A DNA stretch of 64,000 nucleotides. It comes from a virus. This document shows, in pieces, positions 1,671 to 46,526 of the stretch. The position numbers were made by a program, and so were the translations under genes. The DNA lies in the IMG/VR virus record IMGVR_UViG_3300037225_000932, positions 1-64,000 of that record. One strand, written 5' to 3'. The notes below the pieces were generated by a model. The model saw only the letters and a list, made by a program, of their open reading frames with translations, searched no databases and was not told where the DNA came from. Every line of letters starts with the position of its first letter. Position 1 is the first letter of the stretch.

Positions 1671-4600
1671 TTACAAATATTTTTTTCTATAAGCTTTTTC
1701 CAAACTTTCTATCCAGTTATTGTCTATACAAAACTTATATATATTATAATCGTCATTATTCTTTCCAAAATTCTTACAAAGTTCATTTCCTTCTGCTATA
1801 CTAATAAGTCTAATATCTTTGTCATCTTCAAAAATTTCTGGGAAACAAACAGCAAGAGTTATATTTTTATATTTTTTTCTTAAATCTGGAAGAATATTTC
1901 TAAAAACAACATGATCTCCCATCCCACAATCCAAAATAATCAATTTGTTTTCTGTATTTTTTTGAATATTCCATTCTTTTAATTTTCTGTCAAAAACCTG
2001 TTCATCAAGTTGCCAATAATTAGTTTCTTTATATTCTCTTATTCCGCCCTGAGATTGCCTAAAATGCCAAGTTCTTGCTCTTGTATCAACTAATAATTTC
2101 CAACCATTTCTTTTCATTTCATAAGTAAAAATTGTTTCTTCTCTATGGGCTACCGGAGAAAGCTCTAAACAATATCCGTGTTTTCCAGCTTCTTTTTTAT
2201 ACAAGAAAGAACTATACAAATGATCAACTTCAATAATTTTATTTTCTTGTGGAACCATCCATTGAACATTAGACGCATATCTAATGTCTTCTATTTTTCC
2301 AGAGACATTACTAACCTTTCCCAACGATCTTGGATCTATTACCAATCCTGCAACGGCCCCTATTTTTTCATCTTTATTTATTGTTTCTAATAAAAACTCT
2401 AAAGCAGTATGCTCCGGGAGAGCATCATCATCCACACGCCAAAGCAAAGGAGTTTTAGAGTTTTCCAATATATGCTGATGATTAAGTAGTTGTCCTTTTT
2501 GCTTTCCATAAACAACTTCCCATTCTATTCCACTAAAAGATAATAGGTTAAAAATACATTCATATGTTTCATTTTTCCTTAAATCTGTATGTTCTCCATC
2601 TTGATATAAAACAAACCTATCCGGCTTAACGGTCTGATTTATTATACTATAAATAACCGATGGTAGTGTAGTAAAATATCTATTTTTAGAAGAAGCATAA
2701 GCTGTTACACCATTTTTCTTATTTTTTATTGGCATAAATTTGTTCTCTTTTATAAAATCAATCTCATCAAAATGTGCTAAATTATCCAAAACATATTTAG
2801 GAAGAGTTTTATCAGGACTAAAATAAGAAAATTTTACACCTTTTCTATTAAAAATATCTATTCCTTCTTCAATACTTTTATCTAATATGTTTTTATCTTT
2901 ATTTTCTATAGTATTATTTTCTTGATGTGCAGAATTCTCTATTTTATCAATAATAGAGTTAACATTTCCAATATAGCTAAAATGCCATCCTCCATCTTTT
3001 ATGATTGGACATTCTTTATAAAATCTTATTTCATCACAGGTTTTTCCCATTTCTTTAAAAACCTTATATGGCAAAATTTTTACCCACTGCCACACTCCAT
3101 CATTTATTTTGCAATTTAATTTATAATAATAAAGATCTTGTTCTAAACAACACAATCCTTGCTCTGCTTTATATTCTTTTATTCTTTCTGATTTAGGTAT
3201 TTCATCTACATCTGATATAATAACTATATCATCATCATTTAATAAAGACAAAGCTCTACTTATATTATTTCGTTGATGTTTTTCGTATATCCATGTTTTC
3301 CTTTCTCCAATAAATTCTGGCCAACTATCTACTTTAATGTGTATTATTTTATCTAAAAACTTTTTATATCTATCTTTATTTTCTTCAAAATATAAAGGCT
3401 TTTGTTTGTTATTAAAATTTCTCGTTCCCTCTATTATAACAAAATAATCTACAACATCATATAATTCATTTAATCTTATATCTAAAATATCAAATTCGTT
3501 TAAAAATCCAAAACAATCATATATTTTCCCTTTTTTATATTTTTTATGGCACCAGATATCTTCTAAAACAGAAATATCATTACCAAATACATCATTAACA
3601 GCCTTAATAACTCCTTCACTTCCTAAATTGTTTATATTATAATCATGTCCACAAATAATACCATTATTTTTAAGTTTCGGCATCCATTTTTCTATATCCT
3701 CTTTAACTGATTCGTAAGAGTGGTCTGCGTCAATAAATATCATATCTAAAGAATTATCCCCAACACTCAAAGAGGCTTCTAGTGAAGTTTTTTCTAATAA
3801 AGTAACTCTATCTTTAATTCCAAATTTGTTTATATTTTTTTCAAATATTTCTCTATTTTCTTTTCTTTCAATGATTGTAGCATTTCCATTTATACCTAGA
3901 AATGGATCAACAACAATAACTCTTAAGTTCTTTTTTATTATTAAATCAGAAATAGAACACAAAGATCTTCCATAAAGAGATCCTATCTCTGCTATTATAG
4001 AATTATCAGGAATATTATTTATAATATTTTTATATGTAGATATATGGTAACTGGTAAAATATCCTTCAGGAAGGTTATCTTTATTACATTCAATTCTCAT
4101 ATTATATCCCCAATGTTTAAATTGAGGCTCTTTTTTTTTCATATTAATAAACCCAACCTCGAATAAATGTTCACACAATATTTCATAATACCATCCAAAA
4201 AGATGACCATAAGGCAAACAGGTTGTCCCATATATACAATTTAAAAGTTCATATTTACCAATTTTATCTTTTTCCTTAAAATGATTACATATTTCAAGAA
4301 TATCAGGAACCTCTATTATAAGTTTATCTCCTCTTTTTAATATTCTAAACCATTCTCTTAGTGTATATAATACCTCAAAAGGAGATATATGTTCTAAAAC
4401 CTGTATTGCCATTATTTCGTCAACCGACTCATCATGAAAATGATCTAATTTTCTAATATCAAGTTTCATATCTGCTTTTTCATTATATAAATCAATATTT
4501 ATATAACCGTCCAATAAAGCAGATCCACATCCAAGATTTAATTTTACAAATTTATCTTCTTTTTTATTCCACAATAACATTAAAGAACTTACATCTTTTT

Positions 4601-6554
4601 CATCAAAGATATAATCTTCATATTTCACTATTGTTCCATCTCCTATAAATGATAAATAGACATCAAAGTCTGGAAAATCTTTTTCAGTTAAATTATGAAG
4701 TTTATGATATTTTCCAAATTTTCCTGGTGTTTCTTTTAAAGGAACTGTTATAAGTAATCTTTTACAATACTTTTTTAATTCTTGTGCTATTTTTATTCCA
4801 TTATCTAAATGTTCCAAAACTTCAAAAGCAATAATAGTATCATAAAAACCAAACTTAAAATCATCAATTTTTACACATTCAAATTTTGCGCCAGAAATAT
4901 CTCCAAACTCTTTTTTAGCAAAATCTATTATTTTTTTATCATAATCTATACCTAAATAGTCTAAATTAGGAATATCTCCAAAAAATCTCAGTCCATAACC
5001 GGAAGAACATCCTATCTCAAGTATTTTGTTACCTAATATATTTTTTTTTGCCCATTTATATTTTTCAGCCTCTATTGGTCTTAAGTGGTCTTTTTTTCCA
5101 GCAACCCAACGCTCAAAACCATTTCCATATTCCTTTTGAATATCATCATGTTTAATAGCAACGTTATATCTATTAAAAAGAATATTTCTATTTTTTGTTA
5201 AAACAGCTTCTCCGTCTTTTATTTTTCCGAATGTCTCTTCTCCCTTATGATAAATAGGAAATCCACCAATCATTTTTTTATCAGCATAATATGAATTACT
5301 TTCAAAAGGAACTTGGACTATCTCATATCCTAAATCTTGAGCTTTTACACAAAAATCTACATCTTCTCCAAACCCAGGATTAAATATTTCATCCAATATC
5401 CCAATCTTATCAAATAATTTTCTATCAATCATTACACAAAAGAATATCAAAAACTCTCTTTCAGAATAAGGACAACGAACCTTCATCGGACCAGTTATTC
5501 CGACATTTTCGTCCCTAAATGGCTCAACTAACATATTTATCCATTTATTTTTTTCGCTACTCAAAATAACAGTATCATCATTTAATAATATCACGTATTT
5601 ACCATTAGAAACTTTTATACCAGCATTCGTCGCTTTAGTATATCCCATTCCATCATCAAACCAAACTAACTTAAATCTGTCTCCTAAGCCTTCTACATAT
5701 TCTTTAGTCCCATCCTTACATCCATTAGCAACTATAATAATTTCTATATCAGAAAGGTCAGTATATTTTATTATACTTTCTATACAAGGCTTCAAACAAT
5801 CTTCTAAATGATTATATGTTGGTATTATTATAGAATATTTCACATTATTTTCTTTCTTGCCATATCTTTTATCGAGTATTTTTTTATTTTGCGCAAATAA
5901 ATTTTCAGTATCTGATTTTGGAAGATGAACAAAAGTAGATCCTCCATTATGATATACGGGAAAATCTCCAACCATTTTTTTCTTAACATCATTTCTTCTC
6001 AACTCTGTGTTAGGAACTTGAACTAACTTATATCCTCCACTCTTTACTTTCATACAAAAATCAACATCATCTCCATATCCCAGTCCAAAAATCTCATCTA
6101 TCAAACCAAATTTATCAAACATCTCGTTCTTTATTAAAACACAAAAAAATAACAAATAATCTATATTTAGATCATCTTTTATACCAAACAAAGGACCAGT
6201 TATACCAACCTTATTATACTGTAAAAAAGGTTCTAATAACATATTTATCCAGGTATTTTTTTCTTGAACCAATAAAATAACATCATTATTTAACAGTAAT
6301 ACATATTTTCCCTTAGCCTCTTTAATACCAAAATTTATTGCTTTTATATATCCCACAGCCTCATCAATCCAAACTAATTTAAATTTATCTCCTAGACTTT
6401 CTATATATTCTTTAGTTTTATCTTTACATCCATTGGCTACTACAATAACTTCTATATTAGACAAGTCAGTATATTTTATTATACTTTCTATACAAGGCTT
6501 CAAACAATCTTCTAAATGATTATATGTTGGTATTATTATAGATATTTTTGTCAT
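1671..6554 (-). CDS. giant multidomain glycosyl-/methyltransferase (GT2-GT2-MTase-MTase-MTase-GT17-like-GT-A-GT9 N-half)
   Basis: Two IIIPTYN..LLN(N/D)D GT2 repeats; LEIGCSSG, KLNLGCG and AEIGSLYG..FIDADHSY methyltransferase motifs; KIYDCF..NEFDILDIRLNEL..SDVDEIP..GGWHFSY GT17-like; WRVDDD; C-terminal GMGDHV. Confidence 0.85.
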   Translation of the reverse strand: MTKISIIIPTYNHLEDCLKPCIESIIKYTDLSNIEVIVVANGCKDKTKEYIESLGDKFKLVWIDEAVGYIKAINFGIKEAKGKYVLLLNNDVILLVQEKNTWINMLLEPFLQYNKVGITGPLFGIKDDLNIDYLLFFCVLIKNEMFDKFGLIDEIFGLGYGDDVDFCMKVKSGGYKLVQVPNTELRRNDVKKKMVGDFPVYHNGGSTFVHLPKSDTENLFAQNKKILDKRYGKKENNVKYSIIIPTYNHLEDCLKPCIESIIKYTDLSDIEIIIVANGCKDGTKEYVEGLGDRFKLVWFDDGMGYTKATNAGIKVSNGKYVILLNDDTVILSSEKNKWINMLVEPFRDENVGITGPMKVRCPYSEREFLIFFCVMIDRKLFDKIGILDEIFNPGFGEDVDFCVKAQDLGYEIVQVPFESNSYYADKKMIGGFPIYHKGEETFGKIKDGEAVLTKNRNILFNRYNVAIKHDDIQKEYGNGFERWVAGKKDHLRPIEAEKYKWAKKNILGNKILEIGCSSGYGLRFFGDIPNLDYLGIDYDKKIIDFAKKEFGDISGAKFECVKIDDFKFGFYDTIIAFEVLEHLDNGIKIAQELKKYCKRLLITVPLKETPGKFGKYHKLHNLTEKDFPDFDVYLSFIGDGTIVKYEDYIFDEKDVSSLMLLWNKKEDKFVKLNLGCGSALLDGYINIDLYNEKADMKLDIRKLDHFHDESVDEIMAIQVLEHISPFEVLYTLREWFRILKRGDKLIIEVPDILEICNHFKEKDKIGKYELLNCIYGTTCLPYGHLFGWYYEILCEHLFEVGFINMKKKEPQFKHWGYNMRIECNKDNLPEGYFTSYHISTYKNIINNIPDNSIIAEIGSLYGRSLCSISDLIIKKNLRVIVVDPFLGINGNATIIERKENREIFEKNINKFGIKDRVTLLEKTSLEASLSVGDNSLDMIFIDADHSYESVKEDIEKWMPKLKNNGIICGHDYNINNLGSEGVIKAVNDVFGNDISVLEDIWCHKKYKKGKIYDCFGFLNEFDILDIRLNELYDVVDYFVIIEGTRNFNNKQKPLYFEENKDRYKKFLDKIIHIKVDSWPEFIGERKTWIYEKHQRNNISRALSLLNDDDIVIISDVDEIPKSERIKEYKAEQGLCCLEQDLYYYKLNCKINDGVWQWVKILPYKVFKEMGKTCDEIRFYKECPIIKDGGWHFSYIGNVNSIIDKIENSAHQENNTIENKDKNILDKSIEEGIDIFNRKGVKFSYFSPDKTLPKYVLDNLAHFDEIDFIKENKFMPIKNKKNGVTAYASSKNRYFTTLPSVIYSIINQTVKPDRFVLYQDGEHTDLRKNETYECIFNLLSFSGIEWEVVYGKQKGQLLNHQHILENSKTPLLWRVDDDALPEHTALEFLLETINKDEKIGAVAGLVIDPRSLGKVSNVSGKIEDIRYASNVQWMVPQENKIIEVDHLYSSFLYKKEAGKHGYCLELSPVAHREETIFTYEMKRNGWKLLVDTRARTWHFRQSQGGIREYKETNYWQLDEQVFDRKLKEWNIQKNTENKLIILDCGMGDHVVFRNILPDLRKKYKNITLAVCFPEIFEDDKDIRLISIAEGNELCKNFGKNNDDYNIYKFCIDNNWIESLEKAYRKKYL

Positions 6555-10958: not shown

Positions 10959-12249
10959 ACCGTTCCTTAAAAAATTTTAAGGTTTTAATTATTAACCGCT
11001 AAACCTTCACCGTTTAGTTTTCTTAATGGATTAACAATTACTGGCCTTGCGGCAAGGCTCCTATCCCCTATTCCTAAGAACTCAGGGATTACTTTTCGTC
11101 CAATATTCAAACTCCCATTTATATCAGCATTTAAAGCAAATCCATCTTTAGTAACATAAAGACCACGATATTTTCTTTTACCAGAAAATTCAACTTCTTT
11201 TTCTCCATATCTAGGTAATGGATCATTATCATAGAAACTCGATTGCGAGGTATAACTTTCTTCTGTAAAAATAACTTCAATACCACTTATTTCTGCTTTA
11301 TATTTAATCTTTTCTAATAATAAAAATATTGGAATAAATTGAAAGTTTTGATTATTTCTTTTTCCTAAATTCATTTTAATTTTACATCCATCGTTTTTAC
11401 CGATAATTATTTTCCCTATTCCATATTTTATGCAATTTTCTACAATTATTTTACTAACATTATGAAAATAATTTTGAATACGAAAATATCGTTTTTTACT
11501 TCTTGTTTTACAGGGATTTTTATTATACCACTGATTTATACTCTTTATTATGTGACCATTGATCAATATTGAACGTTTTTGATCTAAAGTTATCGCACAT
11601 AAATTGTTTAATCCAATGTCAATAGTGCATATTTTGTTTTTATCTACTTTTTCTTTTGTATATTTTTTCTCTTTTTGGTCTTGAGTATCATATACTATTT
11701 CTATAATAAATCCAAAAGTTTTAGGAGTTATTATTACTTGTTTAAATTTTTTATCAGAAGACACCGAAAAACAATCATTAGTAGGCGTTATTTGTGTTAG
11801 TATTTTTTTCGATCTTCCTCCTTTTATCGTTTCTTTATCAAAAATTATTTGTGCCATTTTGTTTTTATATTTTGGAGGTTTAGGTTTTGATTTAAAAGTA
11901 TTTTTATCTTTTTTATAAGCATTTAATGATTTAAGAAAATTTTCCCAATCAGTCAAGCATTTTCTTATTGTTTGTTTTGCTGTTTTCGTGTTATGCAATT
12001 TTTTATAGCATTCAATGTTTTTTACCTCAGTCAATAATAACTTAATATCCGGAAGAGGATATTTATGTTCAAACCACGATTTTCTCATAAAATAATTACA
12101 ACGATTATATAATTCTTTAGAATAAATACATAGCCTAATAATATCTTTATTACCCTTAAAAAAATGTCTTTCAACAAGTATCATATACTATATATTGGGG
12201 TCCATCCCCAAAAATCCTTTAAGAAAAACAAAAAATCTTAAAAATTTAT
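10959..12249 (-). mobile_element. TnpB-only (IS200/IS605, IS1341-like) element flanked by a 7-bp direct repeat
   Basis: tctccca at 10952-10958 and 12250-12256; terminal hairpin ccttaaaa-aa-ttttaagg 10965-10982; splits the primase ORF. Confidence 0.8.
10985..12184 (-). CDS. tnpB: TnpB RNA-guided nuclease
   Basis: MILVERH..SKELYN..NY N-terminus; RuvC motifs TIDIGLNN, EESYTS, NADING. Confidence 0.9.
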   Translation of the reverse strand: MILVERHFFKGNKDIIRLCIYSKELYNRCNYFMRKSWFEHKYPLPDIKLLLTEVKNIECYKKLHNTKTAKQTIRKCLTDWENFLKSLNAYKKDKNTFKSKPKPPKYKNKMAQIIFDKETIKGGRSKKILTQITPTNDCFSVSSDKKFKQVIITPKTFGFIIEIVYDTQDQKEKKYTKEKVDKNKICTIDIGLNNLCAITLDQKRSILINGHIIKSINQWYNKNPCKTRSKKRYFRIQNYFHNVSKIIVENCIKYGIGKIIIGKNDGCKIKMNLGKRNNQNFQFIPIFLLLEKIKYKAEISGIEVIFTEESYTSQSSFYDNDPLPRYGEKEVEFSGKRKYRGLYVTKDGFALNADINGSLNIGRKVIPEFLGIGDRSLAARPVIVNPLRKLNGEGLAVNN

Positions 12250-12520
12250 TCTCCCATCCCCAAACAGCCTGCTGTTTATGTGTATCCATAATGTAAGTAT
12301 AATATTTTAGATCTTTTGGATCGTCTCCAGGTCTTTGTTTTTTCTCTTTTGTAGGATCGTATTTTTGATATCCAATCATTTTACCCGACAAATCAAAAAT
12401 TAAAAATGTAGCAATACCCGTCTCTTTATCAATAATTACTCTCGTAGTTTTTTGATCAAGCCCTCTATCTTTAAGGTGTTTTTCTATATCTATTACTTGT
12501 GATATTTTATACCAATTCAT
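12250..12520 (-). pseudogene. N-terminal part of primase-like gene (MNWYK leader)
   Basis: HLKDRGL..FDLSGKMIGYQKY..KYY..AVWGWE; the remainder of the called ORF reads into the IS end. Confidence 0.75.
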
Positions 12521-25566: not shown

Positions 25567-25940
25567 GGGCCGATATAGGCACTCGACTGGTAAAGATGAT
25601 ACTAAAGTGCAATCCGAAGTTTAACTACTTGGCTTCGTTAAAAAAGAGTTAAAAAATAACTGCTAATACTGAATTAGCTCTTGCCGCCTAATATGGCGAC
25701 ACTTTCTTTTGATAATCTCTAATAGTCAAAAAGAAAGAAAACATTAGAGATAACCTTTTTCCCTATTAAGGCAAATTGTAGGGCGTTATTTATACGAAAT
25801 TAAAAGTAGTTTTATAATATACTTAATTATGAAATGAAAACCTAAAGTATATTTTTGACAATTTTAGAAAAAATTGCTATAATTGTAGTATCTTTAGTTT
25901 GTTTTTATTCAGGACGGGGGTTCAATTCCCCCTCGGTCCA
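25567..25940 (+). ncRNA. ssrA: tmRNA, tag peptide (A)ANTELALAA*
   Basis: GGGCCGA/TCGGTCC acceptor with G3-U70, TCGAC..GGAC ends, GGGGGTTCAATTCCCCC T-arm; resume context ATAACT-GCT at 25662, stop 25689-25691. Confidence 0.92.
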
Positions 25941-25951
25941 TTAGGATTTTT

Positions 25952-40611: not shown

Positions 40612-41991
40612 TTTAAAAAATGCCTCTTAATTCTATAAAAAAGAAGGATTATTTTCTATACTATAGTATTTATACATTATGGATCAAAAGATTTTAACAA
40701 AACGTGAAACACAACTACGACATTCTATTCAAGACTGTAAGGTTTTTGAAGTTAAAATCGTTAAATCTAAACTATCTAAAACATCACTAAATAATATGAA
40801 CACGTTATTCAAAGAAGCAAAATACTTTTATAACTTTTGTTTGTCTCACGATAATCTTGATTTAATAGATACTAAGGTAAAGTCAGTTCCAGTTAAAGTT
40901 CTTGATAAGTTTGAAGATAGAAAATTATCTATTTTGCCAGGACAATCAAAACAATCTATAAAATCAAAAATGTTTTCAAACATAAAAGCACTTAGTTCAC
41001 TAAAGAAAAAAGGGAAAAAAGTAGGCAAACTAAAGTTTAAGAGTTTTTTACATTCTATTCCATTAGTTCAACACGGAATGACTTATAAAATAGATTTTAA
41101 TACTTCAAGAGTAAAAATACAAAATATCAAACAAAAACTTAAAGTGTCAGGTTTATCTCAAATACCTAAAAATATAGAGTTAGCAAATGCTTCTTTAATA
41201 AAAAGGTGTAGTGATTTTTATCTTCATATAACTACTTTCTCAAATAAAATAGAAAAATTTATTACAGAAACTTCAGTTGGAATAGATTTTGGTTGTTCTA
41301 CTCAACTTACTCTTTCTAACGGAATAAAAATAGAATATCAAGTTCCCATCTCTAAAAGACTTAAACGATTAGATAGAAAAATAACGAAGAAAAATCGTAA
41401 AAAATCAAATAATAAGTTTAAAGATCAAATAAAAAGAGAAAAAGAATATAATAAATTAAATAACAAAAAAAAAGACATAAGAAACAAAATAGTTCACGTT
41501 TTGACAAATAACTTTAAGTATATTTGTTTTCAAGATGAAAACTTAAAAGAGTGGCAATCAGGAAATCATGGAAAGAAAATCCAGAATGCCAATCTTGGTG
41601 GAATTATCAGAGATCTAAAAAATAAATCTCATACACCAATCGAAGTAAATAAGTTCTTTCCTTCTACTCAATTATGTCCTAAATGTGGTTGTAAAAATAA
41701 ATTAGAACTAAAAGATCGAATTTATAAGTGTAAATGTGGATATAAAAAAGATCGTGATATACACGCTGCTAAAAACATAGAGCTAGAAGGAATGAAAGAT
41801 AAGAAAATACCTGTGAGTAATAAGATTACGAACAAGTATAAAATACCTGTGGAACGCAGGGAATTAAAGACTGAGGAGAGAAATACCTCTACTACTCATA
41901 TTTTTGATCTCTTAAAAAAGATTAATGGTGTGAGAGCAAGTAATCTCGTTGAGTCAGTAAGCCAATAAGATTTATTTTATTGGTAGTTCAT
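40612..41991 (+). mobile_element. TnpB-only IS200/IS605 element (left end approximate)
   Basis: Right-end hairpin gccaataaga..tttattggt followed by AGTTCA(T), typical of IS605 right ends; no tnpA. Confidence 0.7.
40679..41968 (+). CDS. tnpB: TnpB RNA-guided nuclease
   Basis: VGIDFG, QDENL, FPSTQLCPKCG..CKCG..DRDIHAAKNI. Confidence 0.9.
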   Translation: MDQKILTKRETQLRHSIQDCKVFEVKIVKSKLSKTSLNNMNTLFKEAKYFYNFCLSHDNLDLIDTKVKSVPVKVLDKFEDRKLSILPGQSKQSIKSKMFSNIKALSSLKKKGKKVGKLKFKSFLHSIPLVQHGMTYKIDFNTSRVKIQNIKQKLKVSGLSQIPKNIELANASLIKRCSDFYLHITTFSNKIEKFITETSVGIDFGCSTQLTLSNGIKIEYQVPISKRLKRLDRKITKKNRKKSNNKFKDQIKREKEYNKLNNKKKDIRNKIVHVLTNNFKYICFQDENLKEWQSGNHGKKIQNANLGGIIRDLKNKSHTPIEVNKFFPSTQLCPKCGCKNKLELKDRIYKCKCGYKKDRDIHAAKNIELEGMKDKKIPVSNKITNKYKIPVERRELKTEERNTSTTHIFDLLKKINGVRASNLVESVSQ

Positions 41992-44101: not shown

Positions 44102-44430
44102 ATATTCCTAAAAATACTGATGATTTATTTTTTGAGCAAAAAAATGTATCTGATCCAAAAATACAAAAAATTATAGTAGCATCAAGAAGGATGAGAGATG
44201 CGAGAACAGCCGTGAATAGAAACATTAAAGAGATGAGTGAAATATTTAGAAATAAAGTTAGTGAAGAAAAAATGGAAGAATGGAGATTTAAAGGAGAAGA
44301 CGCTATTGATGAACAAATTATAGCTTCAAAAGAACTATATGAAGCTTTAGATGAATTTGACGGGACACATGTAGTAGAAGAGTTAAAAAAAGAATTTGGA
44401 GACGATATATTTGATGTTGAAGAATATTAA
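44092..44430 (+). CDS. hypothetical protein
   Basis: 112-aa ORF. Confidence 0.7.
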   Translation: METNIPKNTDDLFFEQKNVSDPKIQKIIVASRRMRDARTAVNRNIKEMSEIFRNKVSEEKMEEWRFKGEDAIDEQIIASKELYEALDEFDGTHVVEELKKEFGDDIFDVEEY

Positions 44431-44794
44431 AACAAAAGAGTTTCTTAATGGAAAAATTCATAGAGCAACAATCACTGGAACTTTTCCTGATTATGAGGGA
44501 AGTATAACTATAGATAAATATCTCATGGACCTTTCCGATATAGCTGAGTATGAAAAAGTTTTAGTAGCCAATATAGATACAGGAGAAAGATTTGAAACAT
44601 ATGCTATTTACGCAGAACCGTATTCAGGTCGGATAGAAATAAATGGAGCAGCAGCAAAAAAAGCTAAAATAGGCGAAAAAGTAATCATTATGTCTTTTGT
44701 TAGTTTAGAAAAAGGAGATAATGGAAAATATGAAAACAGTCCTTTTATGGTGAAAGTAGACGATAAAAATAAGGTTATAATATTTAAGGATTAA
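44414..44794 (+). CDS. panD: aspartate 1-decarboxylase
   Basis: KIHRATIT, YEG-SITID autocleavage site, GERFETY, INGAAA. Confidence 0.92.
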   Translation: MLKNIKTKEFLNGKIHRATITGTFPDYEGSITIDKYLMDLSDIAEYEKVLVANIDTGERFETYAIYAEPYSGRIEINGAAAKKAKIGEKVIIMSFVSLEKGDNGKYENSPFMVKVDDKNKVIIFKD

Positions 44795-45234: not shown

Positions 45235-45377
45235 GCTTCTGTAACTCAACGGCCAAGATCGATTAAAAATATTCTAAATATTAGAGCCAAAGTCGCAATA
45301 GGATGCGAGAAGATCTCTAAAATCTTTAATGTATGGGTTCGACTCCCATTTGGCTCACTTGAACTCAGACAGAAGCA
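45235..45377 (+). pseudogene. outer tRNA shell enclosing the suppressor tRNA
   Basis: GCTTCTG (45235-41)/CAGAAGC (45370-76) perfect acceptor stem + A; TA-ACTC-AACGGCCA D-arm start; TGAACTCAGA T-arm remnant. Confidence 0.5.
45284..45357 (+). tRNA. amber suppressor tRNA (anticodon CUA)
   Basis: GAGCCAA/TTGGCTC + A73; TCGC/GCGA D-stem; AAGAT-CT CTA AA-ATCTT (anticodon 45317-45319); ATGGG-TTCGACT-CCCAT. Confidence 0.85.
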
Positions 45378-45431
45378 TTTAAGGTAAATTATTAGAAAGG
45401 ATGTCTATATGATTATGACTCTTCAGACAGT

Positions 45432-45632
45432 TTGCAGACGATTGTTATGAACCTTCCAGAAATAGTAAAAGATAAAAAAGATAAAATTAAGAATCTTTTT
45501 GATGAAGAGGGTATTGAAATTGCTAATACAATATTTGGTAGAGGTCTAAGTCCATATTTAGGATCATCACTTATGGATAAAGCTGAGAGTATAAATGTGG
45601 TTGTCCGAATGCTCGCAGAACACCGTCTATGA
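45432..45632 (+). CDS. hypothetical protein
   Basis: 66-aa ORF, start uncertain. Confidence 0.5.
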   Translation: MQTIVMNLPEIVKDKKDKIKNLFDEEGIEIANTIFGRGLSPYLGSSLMDKAESINVVVRMLAEHRL

Positions 45633-45648
45633 ATAATAATGAAACTTA

Positions 45649-45675
45649 AAGGAAAATTTTATTTTTTGCCGAATA
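45649..45675 (+). promoter_or_regulatory. candidate phage promoter AAGG-N17-CGA
   Basis: Same spacing at 13636-13659 and 58468-58491; GCCGAATA resembles the sigma-28 -10 box. Confidence 0.45.
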
Positions 45676-45696
45676 AATATAATAAGGAGAAAAAAT

Positions 45697-46050
45697 ATGA
45701 GTTAGGTATCAAAATGTCAAGTATCAGAAAACCATCCGTTTGTTTATGTCTTAGTTAGAAAAGATTTATCATTTGGATCATGTTGCGTTCAATCATGTCA
45801 TGTCATCATAGAAGCCTCTAAAACTTTTGGATTCACATAGGAACATCCTTCTATAATTGTCTGTGAAGTATCAGACGAATGTTCTTTATTACGTTCAGCA
45901 TCTAAGTTAGAAAAATCTGGTATATCTTTTAAACTATTTCAAGAACCAGATATAGACAATCATTATACAGCCTTAGCAACCAGACATGTTTATGGGTCTG
46001 AAAGGTTATTATTTAAACATTTTCAGCTTTTAAAAGGAGATAAAATATGA
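45697..46050 (+). CDS. peptidyl-tRNA hydrolase type 2 (PTH2/PTRHD1)-like protein with two in-frame TAG codons
   Basis: SD aaggag; MS*VSK..YVLVRKDLS.G...VQSCH..FT*EHPSIIV..FQEPDIDNHYTALAT; TAG at 45703 and 45838; ends with an ATGA overlap. Confidence 0.75.
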
Positions 46051-46526
46051 GTAATTTAACAAGTTTTGGAATGTATGTGCCTCTCGATTATGAAACTTAC
46101 AAAAAAATTAAAATAATAAAATCTGTAATCAATGTTTCTGTTTTTAAAGTAAAAAGATGGAACAGGTGGATAAAAAAAGACCCCAAAAATAGAACTTATA
46201 AAAAAAACATAGTAAATGATAAAGGTCAGAAAATAGGTCAAGAAATAACAGGGTTTATTATAGAGCCATTTCCGTGTGAAATATTTTTTGAAAAAAATAA
46301 AAGGTATAGTCATTTTGGATATAATAACCAATATCACTATAATGAGATAGAGATAGAAGAATGGAAAGAAAAGGATATTCAAAAATGGTTAAAACAATGG
46401 GATTTGGCTAAAAAGGTATATAAAGAAGATAAAGATGTTAAACCATTAGAGATTTCAAAAGATAAAATAGAAGAGACTTATAAAAAAATATTAGATTTTT
46501 ATAACAATTTTGTTAAAAAATCTTGA
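46047..46526 (+). CDS. hypothetical protein
   Basis: SD aggag; coupled to the Pth-like gene. Confidence 0.7.
   Translation: MSNLTSFGMYVPLDYETYKKIKIIKSVINVSVFKVKRWNRWIKKDPKNRTYKKNIVNDKGQKIGQEITGFIIEPFPCEIFFEKNKRYSHFGYNNQYHYNEIEIEEWKEKDIQKWLKQWDLAKKVYKEDKDVKPLEISKDKIEETYKKILDFYNNFVKKS

What the first reader, a model, noticed from the sequence alone, without database searches (positions are those of the whole stretch)
45284..46050. Amber-suppressor tRNA next to a peptidyl-tRNA hydrolase gene gated by two TAG codons
Seen: a clean cloverleaf with anticodon CTA (45317-45319). About 340 nt downstream, a strong SD precedes a 118-codon frame with PTH2-family motifs (VLVRKDL, Q..H, EPD..TALA). Its only defects are TAG at codon 3 (45703) and codon 48 (45838); it has no TAA/TGA or frameshift and ends in an ATGA overlap with the next gene. 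All long genes in the window are open in the standard code, so TAG is not globally reassigned. By hand count only three credible genes stop on TAG (12528, 39020, 46831) against more than 25 on TGA. Known: very short minigenes cause peptidyl-tRNA drop-off, which Pth recycles, and some large phages carry suppressor tRNAs. Inference: AUG-AGU-UAG is a minigene or switch, so Pth is made only when UAG is read through (suppressor charged or RF1 limited). This would be a gene-specific stop-codon circuit for translation rescue rather than genome-wide recoding.
Basis: partly seen in the sequence, partly recalled or inferred. Interest (0 to 1): 0.9.

Follow-up and report, generated by a model that had tools for sequence, protein, structure and literature searches.

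The report
Suppressor-tRNA-gated phage Pth2-like gene
A 173-kb phage that otherwise uses the normal genetic code carries a tRNA that reads the UAG stop codon. Beside it is a small tRNA-hydrolase-like gene that can only be read through two UAG codons, and the same lock-and-key pairing recurs in dozens of distant phages, so it looks like a natural, apparently undescribed translational switch.

Summary
A clean tRNA(CUA) lies at 45284-45358. 338 nt downstream, a strong SD and ATG-AGT-TAG open a 117-codon frame (45697-46050) with a second TAG at codon 48. The read-through protein folds with high confidence as Pth2.

The genome is a standard-code phage (stops TAA 157, TGA 53, TAG 22). This is its only gene with such a gate.

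Comparative data show the stops are functional. In 131 related loci (78 lineages at 85% identity), 53 lineages open with SD-ATG, 1-13 codons including the ATG, then a stop, then the in-frame domain. The stop matches the anticodon of the linked suppressor tRNA:
- TAG with CUA in 35 lineages
- TGA with UCA in 5
- mismatched in 0 (Fisher p = 1.5e-6)

The base after the stop is a purine in 52 of 53 (p = 4e-13). The codon-48 TAG sits in a surface loop where six other lineages also carry TAG. An uncharacterised 159-aa gene that overlaps the stop (ATGA) is a conserved downstream partner.

The "translation rescue" purpose is still inference. I found no description in the held literature. This scan has flagged the same module before on other genomes (36 unchecked notes).

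The parts
45284..45358 (+). Amber-suppressor-type tRNA, anticodon CUA (45317-45319). It has a 7-bp Watson-Crick acceptor stem, discriminator A, a short variable arm and anticodon loop CU-CUA-AA. The amino-acid identity is undetermined.
   Evidence: ARAGORN; Rfam RF00005 50.5 bits; nearest-neighbour isotype test inconclusive
45432..45632 (+). Small ORF between the tRNA and the gated gene (66 aa from TTG, 61 aa from ATG 45447). It has no family and is not conserved in related loci, so it is probably not part of the conserved module.
   Evidence: tblastn against all loci found nothing
45685..45690 (+). Shine-Dalgarno AAGGAG, 6 nt before the ATG. The initiation region is unstructured.
   Evidence: RNA fold z = +1.63
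45697..45705 (+). Leader ATG-AGT followed by gate 1, TAG at codon 3 (45703-45705), then GTA (purine at +4).
   Evidence: same architecture in 53 lineages
45697..46050 (+). Pth2-fold gene, 117 codons when both TAGs are read through. Invariant family residues are Y17, R21, D23, Q32, H35, E83 and T91.
45838..45840 (+). Gate 2, TAG at codon 48, in the surface loop between helix 26-44 and strand 52-58. TAG occurs at the same loop offset in six other lineages.
   Evidence: the only mid-gene TAG in the genome with coding sequence on both sides
46047..46526 (+). Conserved downstream partner gene, 159 aa, with its start overlapping the Pth2-like stop (ATGA). No known family or fold.
   Evidence: model pLDDT 85; no PDB match

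Best explanation
This is a three-part phage module: a suppressor tRNA(CUA), a divergent Pth2-fold gene, and a translationally coupled partner gene.

Proposed mechanism:
- Ribosomes start at the strong SD-AUG, make Met-Ser and meet UAG at codon 3.
- If release factor 1 wins, only a dipeptide is released and nothing else is made.
- If the phage's own tRNA(CUA) decodes the UAG, and again the UAG in a tolerant surface loop at codon 48, the full 117-residue enzyme is made. Through the ATGA overlap, probably the downstream partner is made too.
- The amount of enzyme therefore tracks how active amber suppression is in the infected cell.

Shown:
- the anatomy of the module
- that it is unique in a standard-code genome
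- conservation of the early stop
- covariation between the stop and the tRNA anticodon
- the read-through-favouring purine after the stop
- the recurrent second gate
- the Pth2 fold

Inferred:
- that the tRNA is charged and actually reads these codons
- what the enzyme does

My best guess for function (about 40%, given gating) is an ester hydrolase for peptidyl- or N-blocked aminoacyl-tRNA. It would keep tRNAs, perhaps the phage suppressor itself, free while termination at UAG is being overridden. That makes it a feed-forward coupling of a clean-up enzyme to the process that creates its substrates.
For: 1. The tRNA(CUA) and the two TAGs are as described.
2. The genome uses the standard code. 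The 110-173 kb drop in coding density is a minus-strand block of small genes, not recoding. Stops are TAA 157, TGA 53, TAG 22.
3. A genome-wide scan for SD+ATG, up to 12 codons, a stop, then at least 40 coding codons with no alternative start finds only this gene. It finds none for TGA or TAA.
4. Homologues reach 50% identity across both TAGs. Invariant residues lie on both sides of codon 48.
5. 53 of 78 lineages have the early stop after 1-13 codons including the ATG; the commonest leader is ATG plus one codon, putting the stop at codon 3 as here.
6. The stop matches the linked suppressor anticodon: TAG with CUA in 35 lineages, TGA with UCA in 5 (L061, L153, L157, L190, L198), mismatched in 0. 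Fisher p = 1.2e-4 to 1.5e-6.
7. Where the flank held no tRNA(CUA), the whole genome did (G001, G002, G004), or ARAGORN had missed a syntenic one (L072). RaK2 uses an ATG downstream of a relic TAG, and its 9 Rfam tRNA hits all lie within the ±10 kb flank, where the 8 tRNAs ARAGORN called include no CUA.
8. In several loci the only tRNA within 20 kb is the CUA one (L055, L058, L070, L081).
9. The base after the stop is a purine in 52 of 53 lineages against a 54% background, p = 3.7e-13. From my own knowledge, a 3' purine favours nonsense suppression in E. coli (Bossi 1983; Miller and Albertini 1983).
10. A second TAG sits at the same loop offset in 7 lineages, and it is the sole gate in three that start normally.
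11. The fold is Pth2: pLDDT 91, TM about 0.69 to 2zv3, 3erj, 1wn2, 1xty and 1q7s.
12. The partner gene lies directly downstream in 44 of 131 loci.
Against: - There is no expression, charging or proteomic evidence, and reads could not be consulted.
- The amino acid inserted is unknown.
- Sequence similarity to Pfam PTH2 is only at threshold.
- The canonical Gly-Lys-Gly-Lys loop is deleted. By my recollection of the S. solfataricus work, it carries a catalytic Lys (alignment). Canonical Pth activity is therefore not assured.
- About a quarter of lineages keep the tRNA next to an ungated gene. XacN1 has CUA tRNAs with an ungated fused form (PMC5852040). So the tRNA-protein link is broader than gating.
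- In L061 a GTG follows the TGA and could be an alternative start.
- Lineages are not phylogenetically independent, so the p-values are optimistic.
- The genome's 22 TAG-terminated genes would also be read through by an efficient suppressor.
Confidence: 0.8

Rival explanations
1. The gate is real, but the product is a governor and not a helper. The Pth2-like enzyme would hydrolyse the ester on the suppressor tRNA itself (aminoacyl or peptidyl). More suppression would then give more enzyme and less charged suppressor, a negative-feedback loop holding read-through at a low set-point.
For: - The enzyme gene stays tightly linked to the suppressor tRNA even when it is not gated.
- The active site is divergent, which may reflect altered substrate choice.
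- The phage still needs TAG as a stop for 22 genes, so unchecked suppression would be costly.
Against: - There is no evidence on substrate.
- Canonical Pth2 enzymes act on N-blocked, not free, aminoacyl-tRNA (my own knowledge).
- Nothing in the sequence data distinguishes the sign of the feedback.
Confidence: 0.2
2. The early stop is passed without the phage tRNA, and the tRNA is nearby only because these genes sit in tRNA-rich regions. Possible routes are near-cognate read-through when RF1 is limiting, or re-initiation or non-canonical initiation just after the stop.
For: - Many loci are tRNA-rich.
- L061 has a GTG immediately after its TGA.
- A few lineages have GTG or TTG within a few codons of the stop.
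Against: - Stop and anticodon covary perfectly, 40 to 0.
- In some loci the sole tRNA within 20 kb is the CUA one.
- In this gene no ATG, GTG or TTG lies between the TAG and the domain, and the SD is placed for the upstream ATG.
- A second TAG at codon 48 cannot be bypassed by re-initiation without losing the conserved N-terminal half.
Confidence: 0.07
3. The phage reassigns TAG to a sense codon in a whole class of genes (code-15-like recoding as in Lak and crAss-like phages), and this gene is just one example.
For: - A suppressor tRNA is present.
- TAG is the rarest stop.
- Coverage by ORFs of 100 aa or more rises when TAG is read as sense at 110-130 kb.
Against: - That rise comes from antisense frames opposite real minus-strand genes.
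- The dicodon model finds only one genuine mid-gene TAG, codon 48 of this gene.
- Reading TAG as sense gains no more than the TGA control in any relative's flank.
- 22 scored genes end on TAG.
Confidence: 0.03
4. The gene is a decaying pseudogene, or the TAGs are assembly errors.
For: - There are two in-frame stops in a 117-codon frame.
- Reads were not available.
Against: - Both stop positions recur in distant lineages: the early site in 53, the loop site in 7.
- There is no frameshift and no other stop.
- Invariant residues are kept on both sides.
- The SD, ATG and ATGA coupling are intact.
Confidence: 0.02

Closest known systems
Stop-codon-recoded phages with phage-encoded suppressor tRNAs (TAG read as Gln, 'code 15'; Lak, crAss-like and others; bioRxiv 10.1101/2021.08.26.457843)
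   Same: - A phage-encoded tRNA(CUA) is proposed to let in-frame TAGs be read in a standard-code host.
- In-frame stops are proposed to act as a post-transcriptional gate on expression.
   Different: - Here the genome uses the standard code, and TAG still terminates 22 genes.
- Exactly one gene is gated.
- The gate sits at codons 2-14 behind a strong SD, so failure yields only a tiny peptide.
- The gated gene is physically linked to the tRNA and belongs to the same protein family in dozens of lineages.
- That paper does not mention Pth or any hydrolase.
Peptidyl-tRNA hydrolase 2 (Pth2, Pfam PF01981; PDB 2zv3, 3erj, 1wn2, 1xty; human Bit1/PTRH2 1q7s)
   Same: - Same fold (TM about 0.69).
- Shared R-x-D-L, Q-x-x-H-A and acidic-x-x...T-A motifs.
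   Different: - Identity is only 15-25%.
- The Gly-Lys-Gly-Lys loop is deleted.
- Glu replaces the Asp of the D-A-G motif.
- It is phage-borne.
- Activity is untested.
prfB (RF2) autoregulatory recoding site
   Same: An in-frame stop early in the ORF acts as a sensor of how efficiently that stop is decoded, and this sets the output of a translation-factor gene.
   Different: - prfB uses a +1 frameshift at UGA and senses its own product.
- Here the stop is read in frame by a dedicated tRNA.
- Whether the product feeds back on decoding is unknown.
Phage lambda bar minigenes (AUG-AUA-stop), toxic when Pth is limiting
   Same: SD, AUG, one or two codons, then a stop. That is the class of message known to shed short peptidyl-tRNAs that Pth must recycle (my own knowledge).
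   Different: - bar minigenes are stand-alone.
- Here the 'minigene' is in frame with, and is the only start for, a Pth-like enzyme.
- Drop-off was not tested.
Orphan CUA suppressor tRNAs of standard-code jumbo phages (for example XacN1, PMC5852040)
   Same: CUA tRNAs occur in a phage with normal coding. The authors could find no target gene.
   Different: This module supplies a candidate target or partner, although XacN1's own copy of the protein is an ungated fusion.

Membership tests
Pth2 (PF01981) peptidyl-tRNA hydrolase | Sequence match to the family profile above the curated threshold | tested here: inconclusive
   This protein scores 23.0 bits against a cutoff of 23. Relatives score 18.5-29.5 bits. 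The 30-sequence profile hits PDB Pth2 chains at E = 1.4e-6 and 1.1e-4.
Pth2 (PF01981) peptidyl-tRNA hydrolase | Pth2 alpha/beta fold | tested here: met
   The model has pLDDT 91.2. The 13 best Foldseek PDB hits (all with E <= 0.0022) are 12 Pth2 chains plus one DUF2000 relative (2gax), with probability 1.0 and TM 0.55-0.69.
Pth2 (PF01981) peptidyl-tRNA hydrolase | Catalytic residues (Lys of the G-K-G-K loop and Asp of D-A-G in S. solfataricus Pth2, recalled from memory and not verified here) | tested here: inconclusive
   The HMM alignment shows a 2-residue deletion where the G-K loop lies, with no Lys. Invariant E83 aligns with the Asp. R21, D23, Q32 and H35 are kept.
Pth2 (PF01981) peptidyl-tRNA hydrolase | Hydrolysis of N-blocked aminoacyl-tRNA | not testable with these tools
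   This needs an enzyme assay.
Stop-codon-recoded (code 15) phage | Phage-encoded suppressor tRNA for the reassigned stop | tested here: met
   tRNA(CUA) at 45284-45358.
Stop-codon-recoded (code 15) phage | Low coding density in code 11 that is restored by reading TAG as sense; in-frame TAG in many genes | tested here: not met
   Searches find one gated gene only, and 22 genes end on TAG.
Suppressor-gated Pth2-like module (the recurrent arrangement defined here) | SD-ATG, a short leader, an in-frame stop, then the Y-x-[LF]-V-R-x-D-L domain with no alternative start | tested here: met
   for this gene; 53 lineages share the arrangement.
Suppressor-gated Pth2-like module (the recurrent arrangement defined here) | A cognate suppressor tRNA encoded by the same phage, usually on the same strand and nearby | tested here: met
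   Here the tRNA lies 338 nt upstream on the same strand. Across lineages there are 40 matched pairs and 0 mismatched.
Programmed stop-codon read-through (Q-beta A1, MuLV gag-pol type) | A leaky stop giving two functional products, often with a stimulatory 3' context or RNA structure | tested here: inconclusive
   The purine at +4 is conserved. However, the short product is only a dipeptide, and no significant local RNA structure was found.

The most novel reading that the evidence does not exclude
The module is a closed homeostatic loop. The in-frame stops measure how strongly the phage's suppressor tRNA is overriding termination. The Pth2-like enzyme, possibly with its conserved partner protein, then acts on that same tRNA's ester to turn suppression down. 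This self-limiting governor would let a standard-code phage keep a nonsense suppressor without wrecking its own TAG-terminated genes. It would be a natural, portable, orthogonal 'tRNA plus sensor plus effector' circuit, with TAG, TGA and perhaps TAA versions.
Probability: 0.2. Interest if true: 0.95.

Novelty: new variant of a known kind. Interest (0 to 1): 0.85.

Why it matters
- **Orphan suppressor tRNAs.** Suppressor tRNAs in phages that use the normal code have had no known target; the XacN1 authors say so explicitly. This module gives them a specific, conserved and testable client gene.
- **A single-gene switch.** A stop codon placed at the very start of an ORF, together with a dedicated tRNA, can work as a clean on/off switch for one gene. 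That is distinct from genome-wide recoding.
- **Annotation.** Current gene callers and family libraries hold only the truncated half of the protein (PHROG 34073, CBB_406). The family of about 4,900 sequence clusters is therefore systematically mis-annotated.
- **Tractability.** Several cultured phages carry the module (CBB, GAP32, BF, fHe-Yen9-04), so the mechanism can be tested directly.
- **Engineering.** The matched TAG/CUA and TGA/UCA versions are natural orthogonal parts of interest for genetic-code engineering.

Tried and rejected
- **Regional TAG recoding at 110-130 kb.** Rejected. The TAG-containing plus-strand frames are antisense to real minus-strand genes.
- **Amino-acid identity of the tRNA.** Nearest-neighbour comparison with 300 phage tRNAs gave no consistent isotype.
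- **Fixed anticodon-loop DNA pattern to find CUA tRNAs in whole records.** Too narrow to be useful. It was replaced by the Rfam model plus ARAGORN.
- **Close relatives of this phage by blastn in the phage collection.** None found, so codon-level dN/dS across the stops was not possible.
- **Metagenome scan with the broad alignments A1 and A2.** It worked with the tight alignment A3.
- **ORF between the tRNA and the gene (45432-45632).** No family and no conservation.
- **Partner protein.** No Pfam or PHROG hit. The Atlas gave nothing usable. Foldseek PDB found no match at E <= 1e-3. The exhaustive structural search gave a best Z of 4.9, only generic helical matches.
- **Complex prediction of the enzyme with its partner.** I did not pursue it by other means.
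- **Paper on Pth2 active-site residues (PMC2253226).** Not held.
- **Local RNA structure at the gate.** None found.
Full report
**1. What is in the sequence**

ARAGORN finds a 75-nt tRNA with anticodon CTA at 45284-45358 (+). The cloverleaf is clean: a 7-bp Watson-Crick acceptor stem, a 4-bp D stem, a 5-bp T stem and the loop CU-CUA-AA. Rfam's tRNA model scores it 50.5 bits against a gathering score of 29.

338 nt downstream, AAGGAG (45685-45690) precedes ATG-AGT-TAG (45697-45705). The frame then runs to TGA at 46048-46050, with one further TAG at 45838-45840 (codon 48), no other stop and no frameshift. No ATG, GTG or TTG lies between the first TAG and the conserved domain. The stop overlaps the ATG of the next gene as ATGA.

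**2. What genome this is**

The window is the first 64 kb of a single 173,351-bp virus record at 31% GC. It encodes:
- a large terminase, a ribonucleotide reductase and TnpB-like transposases
- eight tRNAs and a tmRNA

Coding density under code 11 is high up to 110 kb and falls beyond that. Reading TAG as sense appeared to recover some of it. A dicodon model trained on the long ORFs shows that 110-173 kb is a minus-strand block of small genes, and that the TAG-containing plus-strand frames there are antisense artefacts.

Only one genuine mid-gene TAG has coding sequence on both sides, and it is codon 48 of this gene. Among 232 scored, non-nested ORFs the stops are TAA 157, TGA 53 and TAG 22.

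I also scanned the whole genome for SD+ATG, up to 12 codons, a stop, then at least 40 coding codons with no alternative start within 15 codons. The scan returns this gene alone for TAG, and nothing for TGA or TAA. The phage therefore uses the standard code, and this is its only gated gene.

**3. What the protein is**

- Read through, the protein hits Pfam PTH2 exactly at threshold, 23.0 bits.
- tblastn finds full-length relatives in 35 jumbo phages, up to 50% identical over residues 7-112, which spans codon 48.
- A 30-sequence family alignment (A2) gives an AlphaFold model with pLDDT 91.2 and pTM 0.83.
- The model's 13 best PDB matches (E <= 0.0022) are archaeal and human Pth2 structures (2zv3, 3erj/1rzw, 1wn2, 1xty, 1q7s, 1rlk; TM up to 0.69) plus one DUF2000 relative, 2gax.
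- The family profile hits PDB Pth2 chains at E = 1.4e-6 and 1.1e-4.

The invariant family residues are Y17, V20, R21, D23, L24, Q32, H35, L64, E83 and T91.

Compared with canonical Pth2, the Gly-Lys-Gly-Lys loop after R-x-D-L is shortened by two residues and has no Lys. A Glu replaces the Asp of D-A-G (alignment). From memory, those are the catalytic Lys and Asp of the S. solfataricus enzyme. I could not verify this because the paper is not held.

So this is a divergent Pth2-fold protein. Canonical activity is plausible but not assured. Codon 48 lies in the loop between helix 26-44 and strand 52-58.

**4. The stops are conserved features, not lesions**

The first hint came from Pectobacterium phage CBB and a 595-kb uncultured phage. 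Both open SD-ATG, two codons, TAG, and then run in frame into the domain. Both also encode a tRNA(CUA) on the same strand, 3.7 kb and 8 kb away.

I then collected 51 loci from viral contigs and 80 from metagenome contigs, and classified them blind to stop type. Of the 131 loci plus this gene, 116 could be classified, and at 85% identity they form 78 lineages. Of these, 53 have SD-ATG, 1-13 codons including the ATG, a stop, and then the domain with no usable ATG in between. The commonest form has the stop at codon 3, as here.

In the automatic tally the stop is TAG in 48 lineages, TGA in 4 and TAA in 1 (L177). L157 and L190, which my motif regex dropped, add two more TGA cases.

Within the closely related CBB group the leader codons drift (MAQ, MAH, MTH, MSH) while the TAG stays fixed.

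**5. Covariation with the tRNA**

Among gated lineages with a suppressor tRNA in the flank:
- TAG goes with anticodon CUA in 35.
- TGA goes with UCA in 3 by the automatic tally, and in 5 once L157 and L190 (checked by eye) are added.
- No lineage is mismatched.

Fisher's exact test gives p = 1.2e-4 and 1.5e-6 respectively.

In several loci the CUA tRNA is the only tRNA within 20 kb (L055, L058, L070, L081).

Four gated phages had no CUA tRNA within 10 kb. Three encode one elsewhere in the genome. The fourth has a syntenic CUA tRNA that ARAGORN skipped, probably because position 33 is C.

RaK2 starts at an ATG just downstream of a relic CAT-TAG-GTA. Its 9 Rfam tRNA hits all lie within the ±10 kb flank, where the 8 tRNAs ARAGORN called include no CUA.

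None of the relatives' flanks gains more coverage from reading TAG as sense than from the TGA control, so they too use the standard code locally.

This matching of stop to anticodon is the strongest argument that the tRNA decodes the gate.

**6. Context**

The base after the stop is G in 36 lineages, A in 16 and C in 1. That is a purine in 52 of 53, against 54% purine at first codon positions in the same genes (binomial p = 3.7e-13). From my own knowledge, a 3' purine favours nonsense suppression over termination in E. coli. The initiation region is, if anything, less structured than shuffled controls (z = +1.63).

**7. A second gate**

The codon-48 TAG is not idiosyncratic. Seven lineages carry an in-frame TAG at the same loop offset, 29-30 residues after L-V-R-x-D-L and just before the (E/D)-H-P motif:
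- this phage
- L132, L140 and L165, which are also early-gated
- L070, L081 and L084, which start normally and have only this gate

The only other in-domain stops are in L198, whose copy looks frame-shifted, and in L200, near the C-terminus at offset 80. The aligned residue in ungated relatives is variable (D, L, T, S, K, G), as expected for a site where any inserted amino acid is tolerated.

**8. A conserved partner**

The 159-aa ORF whose ATG overlaps the Pth2-like stop (46047-46526) has no Pfam or PHROG family. It does have homologues directly downstream of the Pth2-like gene in other loci.

A profile built from eight of them finds a same-strand ORF immediately downstream in 44 of 131 loci. 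At lineage level this is 15 of 37 gated against 2 of 23 ungated, and it includes TGA- and TAA-gated forms.

Its model is confident (pLDDT 85) but matches nothing in the PDB or the Atlas. With an ATGA overlap, its translation may depend on ribosomes that pass the gates. That is inference.

**9. Mechanism**

I take the gate as established by comparative evidence (confidence about 0.8). The enzyme, and probably its partner, is made only when the phage's tRNA(CUA) out-competes RF1 at two UAGs. Placing the first stop at codons 2-14 means that a failed attempt costs only a tiny peptide and produces no truncated protein.

What the enzyme does is inferred. My estimates, given gating:
- **About 40%: helper.** A tRNA-ester hydrolase that keeps tRNAs free while termination at UAG is being overridden. 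The phage also carries its own tmRNA, which points to investment in translation quality control.
- **About 20-25%: governor.** It acts on the suppressor tRNA itself and so limits read-through.
- **Less likely: lock or timer.** The gate keeps a potentially toxic hydrolase off until the tRNA has accumulated.

The persistence of tRNA-gene linkage in ungated lineages says the protein and the tRNA are functionally tied beyond the gate itself.

**10. Novelty**

- The recoding preprint (10.1101/2021.08.26.457843) and a 2026 jumbo-phage survey (PMC13037316) do not mention Pth or any hydrolase.
- The XacN1 paper states that no target could be found for its CUA tRNAs (PMC5852040).
- Three further full-text searches found nothing.
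- Public annotation holds the broken form. CBB_406 starts at an internal codon, several phages have no CDS under the match, and PHROG 34073 covers only the C-terminal half.
- The family is large: 4,911 clusters at E <= 1e-3 and 2,365 at E <= 1e-10.
- This scan has noted the same module before on other genomes, in 36 unchecked notes.

I reached the reading independently. As far as those summaries show, this report adds:
- the TGA/UCA covariation with statistics
- the purine context
- the recurrent loop gate
- the conserved partner gene
- the TAA variant

I class the finding as a new variant of a known kind (suppressor-tRNA-dependent stop-codon gating in phages) and not as categorically new. If the feedback reading proves right, it would deserve the higher class.

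Noticed in passing
L202:983-1055 (-) = genome 134482-134555, outside the window: A second suppressor-type tRNA with anticodon UUA (ochre type, which could also read UAG by wobble). ARAGORN calls it with a weak T stem. Rfam scores it 36.1 bits against a cutoff of 29. The 527-kb relative G001 also has a UUA tRNA right beside its CUA tRNA (167352 and 167265). This is odd for genomes in which TAA is the main stop.
   Followed up: partly
L177:~780-830 (metagenome contig JACCDG010787701.1, 1.5 kb): A TAA-gated version of the same gene: GGAGG...ATG-GAT-CAT-TAA-GTT, then the domain, with the partner gene downstream. The contig is too short to see whether a UUA tRNA is linked.
   Followed up: partly
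window 25567-25943 (+): A phage-encoded tmRNA (Rfam 91.8 bits) with tag peptide ANTELALAA, flanked by tRNA-Gln and tRNA-Glu. Together with the Pth2-like gene, this gives the phage an unusual set of ribosome-rescue parts.
   Followed up: no
window 45857-45878 (+): The only terminator-like hairpin in the 2.2 kb scanned (7-bp stem, 3 G-C pairs, T-poor tail) lies 17 nt after the codon-48 TAG, inside the gene. It could couple termination at the gate to transcription of the partner gene, but it is weak and may be chance.
   Followed up: no
L005:3082-3315 (CBB_406) and PHROG 34073: Public annotation of this family is systematically truncated. The CBB gene is called from an internal codon. Several Erwinia and Serratia phages have no CDS at all under the match. 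PHROG 34073 (77 positions) covers only the C-terminal half.
   Followed up: yes
L072:13818-13892 (+): A syntenic tRNA with anticodon CUA but C instead of the universal U at position 33. ARAGORN does not call it. It may be a weakened or decaying suppressor in one CBB-like phage.
   Followed up: partly
window 10985-12520 (-): A 110-aa ORF (12188-12520) ends on TAG and is in frame with the TnpB-like transposase ORF that starts one codon later (10985-12184). Amber read-through would fuse them. This could be chance (1 in 3). A second TnpB-like gene lies at 40679-41968.
   Followed up: no
window 44396-44794 (+): A phage-encoded aspartate 1-decarboxylase (PanD) homologue, Pfam PF02261, E = 1.6e-37. 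It is an unusual auxiliary metabolic gene, 490 nt upstream of the tRNA.
   Followed up: no
window 1671-6554 (-): A 1,627-aa protein combining glycosyltransferase and several methyltransferase domains (PHROG hits), followed by further glycosyltransferase genes. This may be a DNA or surface modification cluster.
   Followed up: no
L063/L004 (Klebsiella phage RaK2), about 15 nt upstream of RaK2_00216: A relic CAT-TAG-GTA lies just upstream of the annotated ATG of the RaK2 homologue. RaK2 has only 9 Rfam tRNA hits, all within the flank, and the 8 that ARAGORN called include no CUA. This looks like a lineage that lost both the gate and the suppressor.
   Followed up: partly
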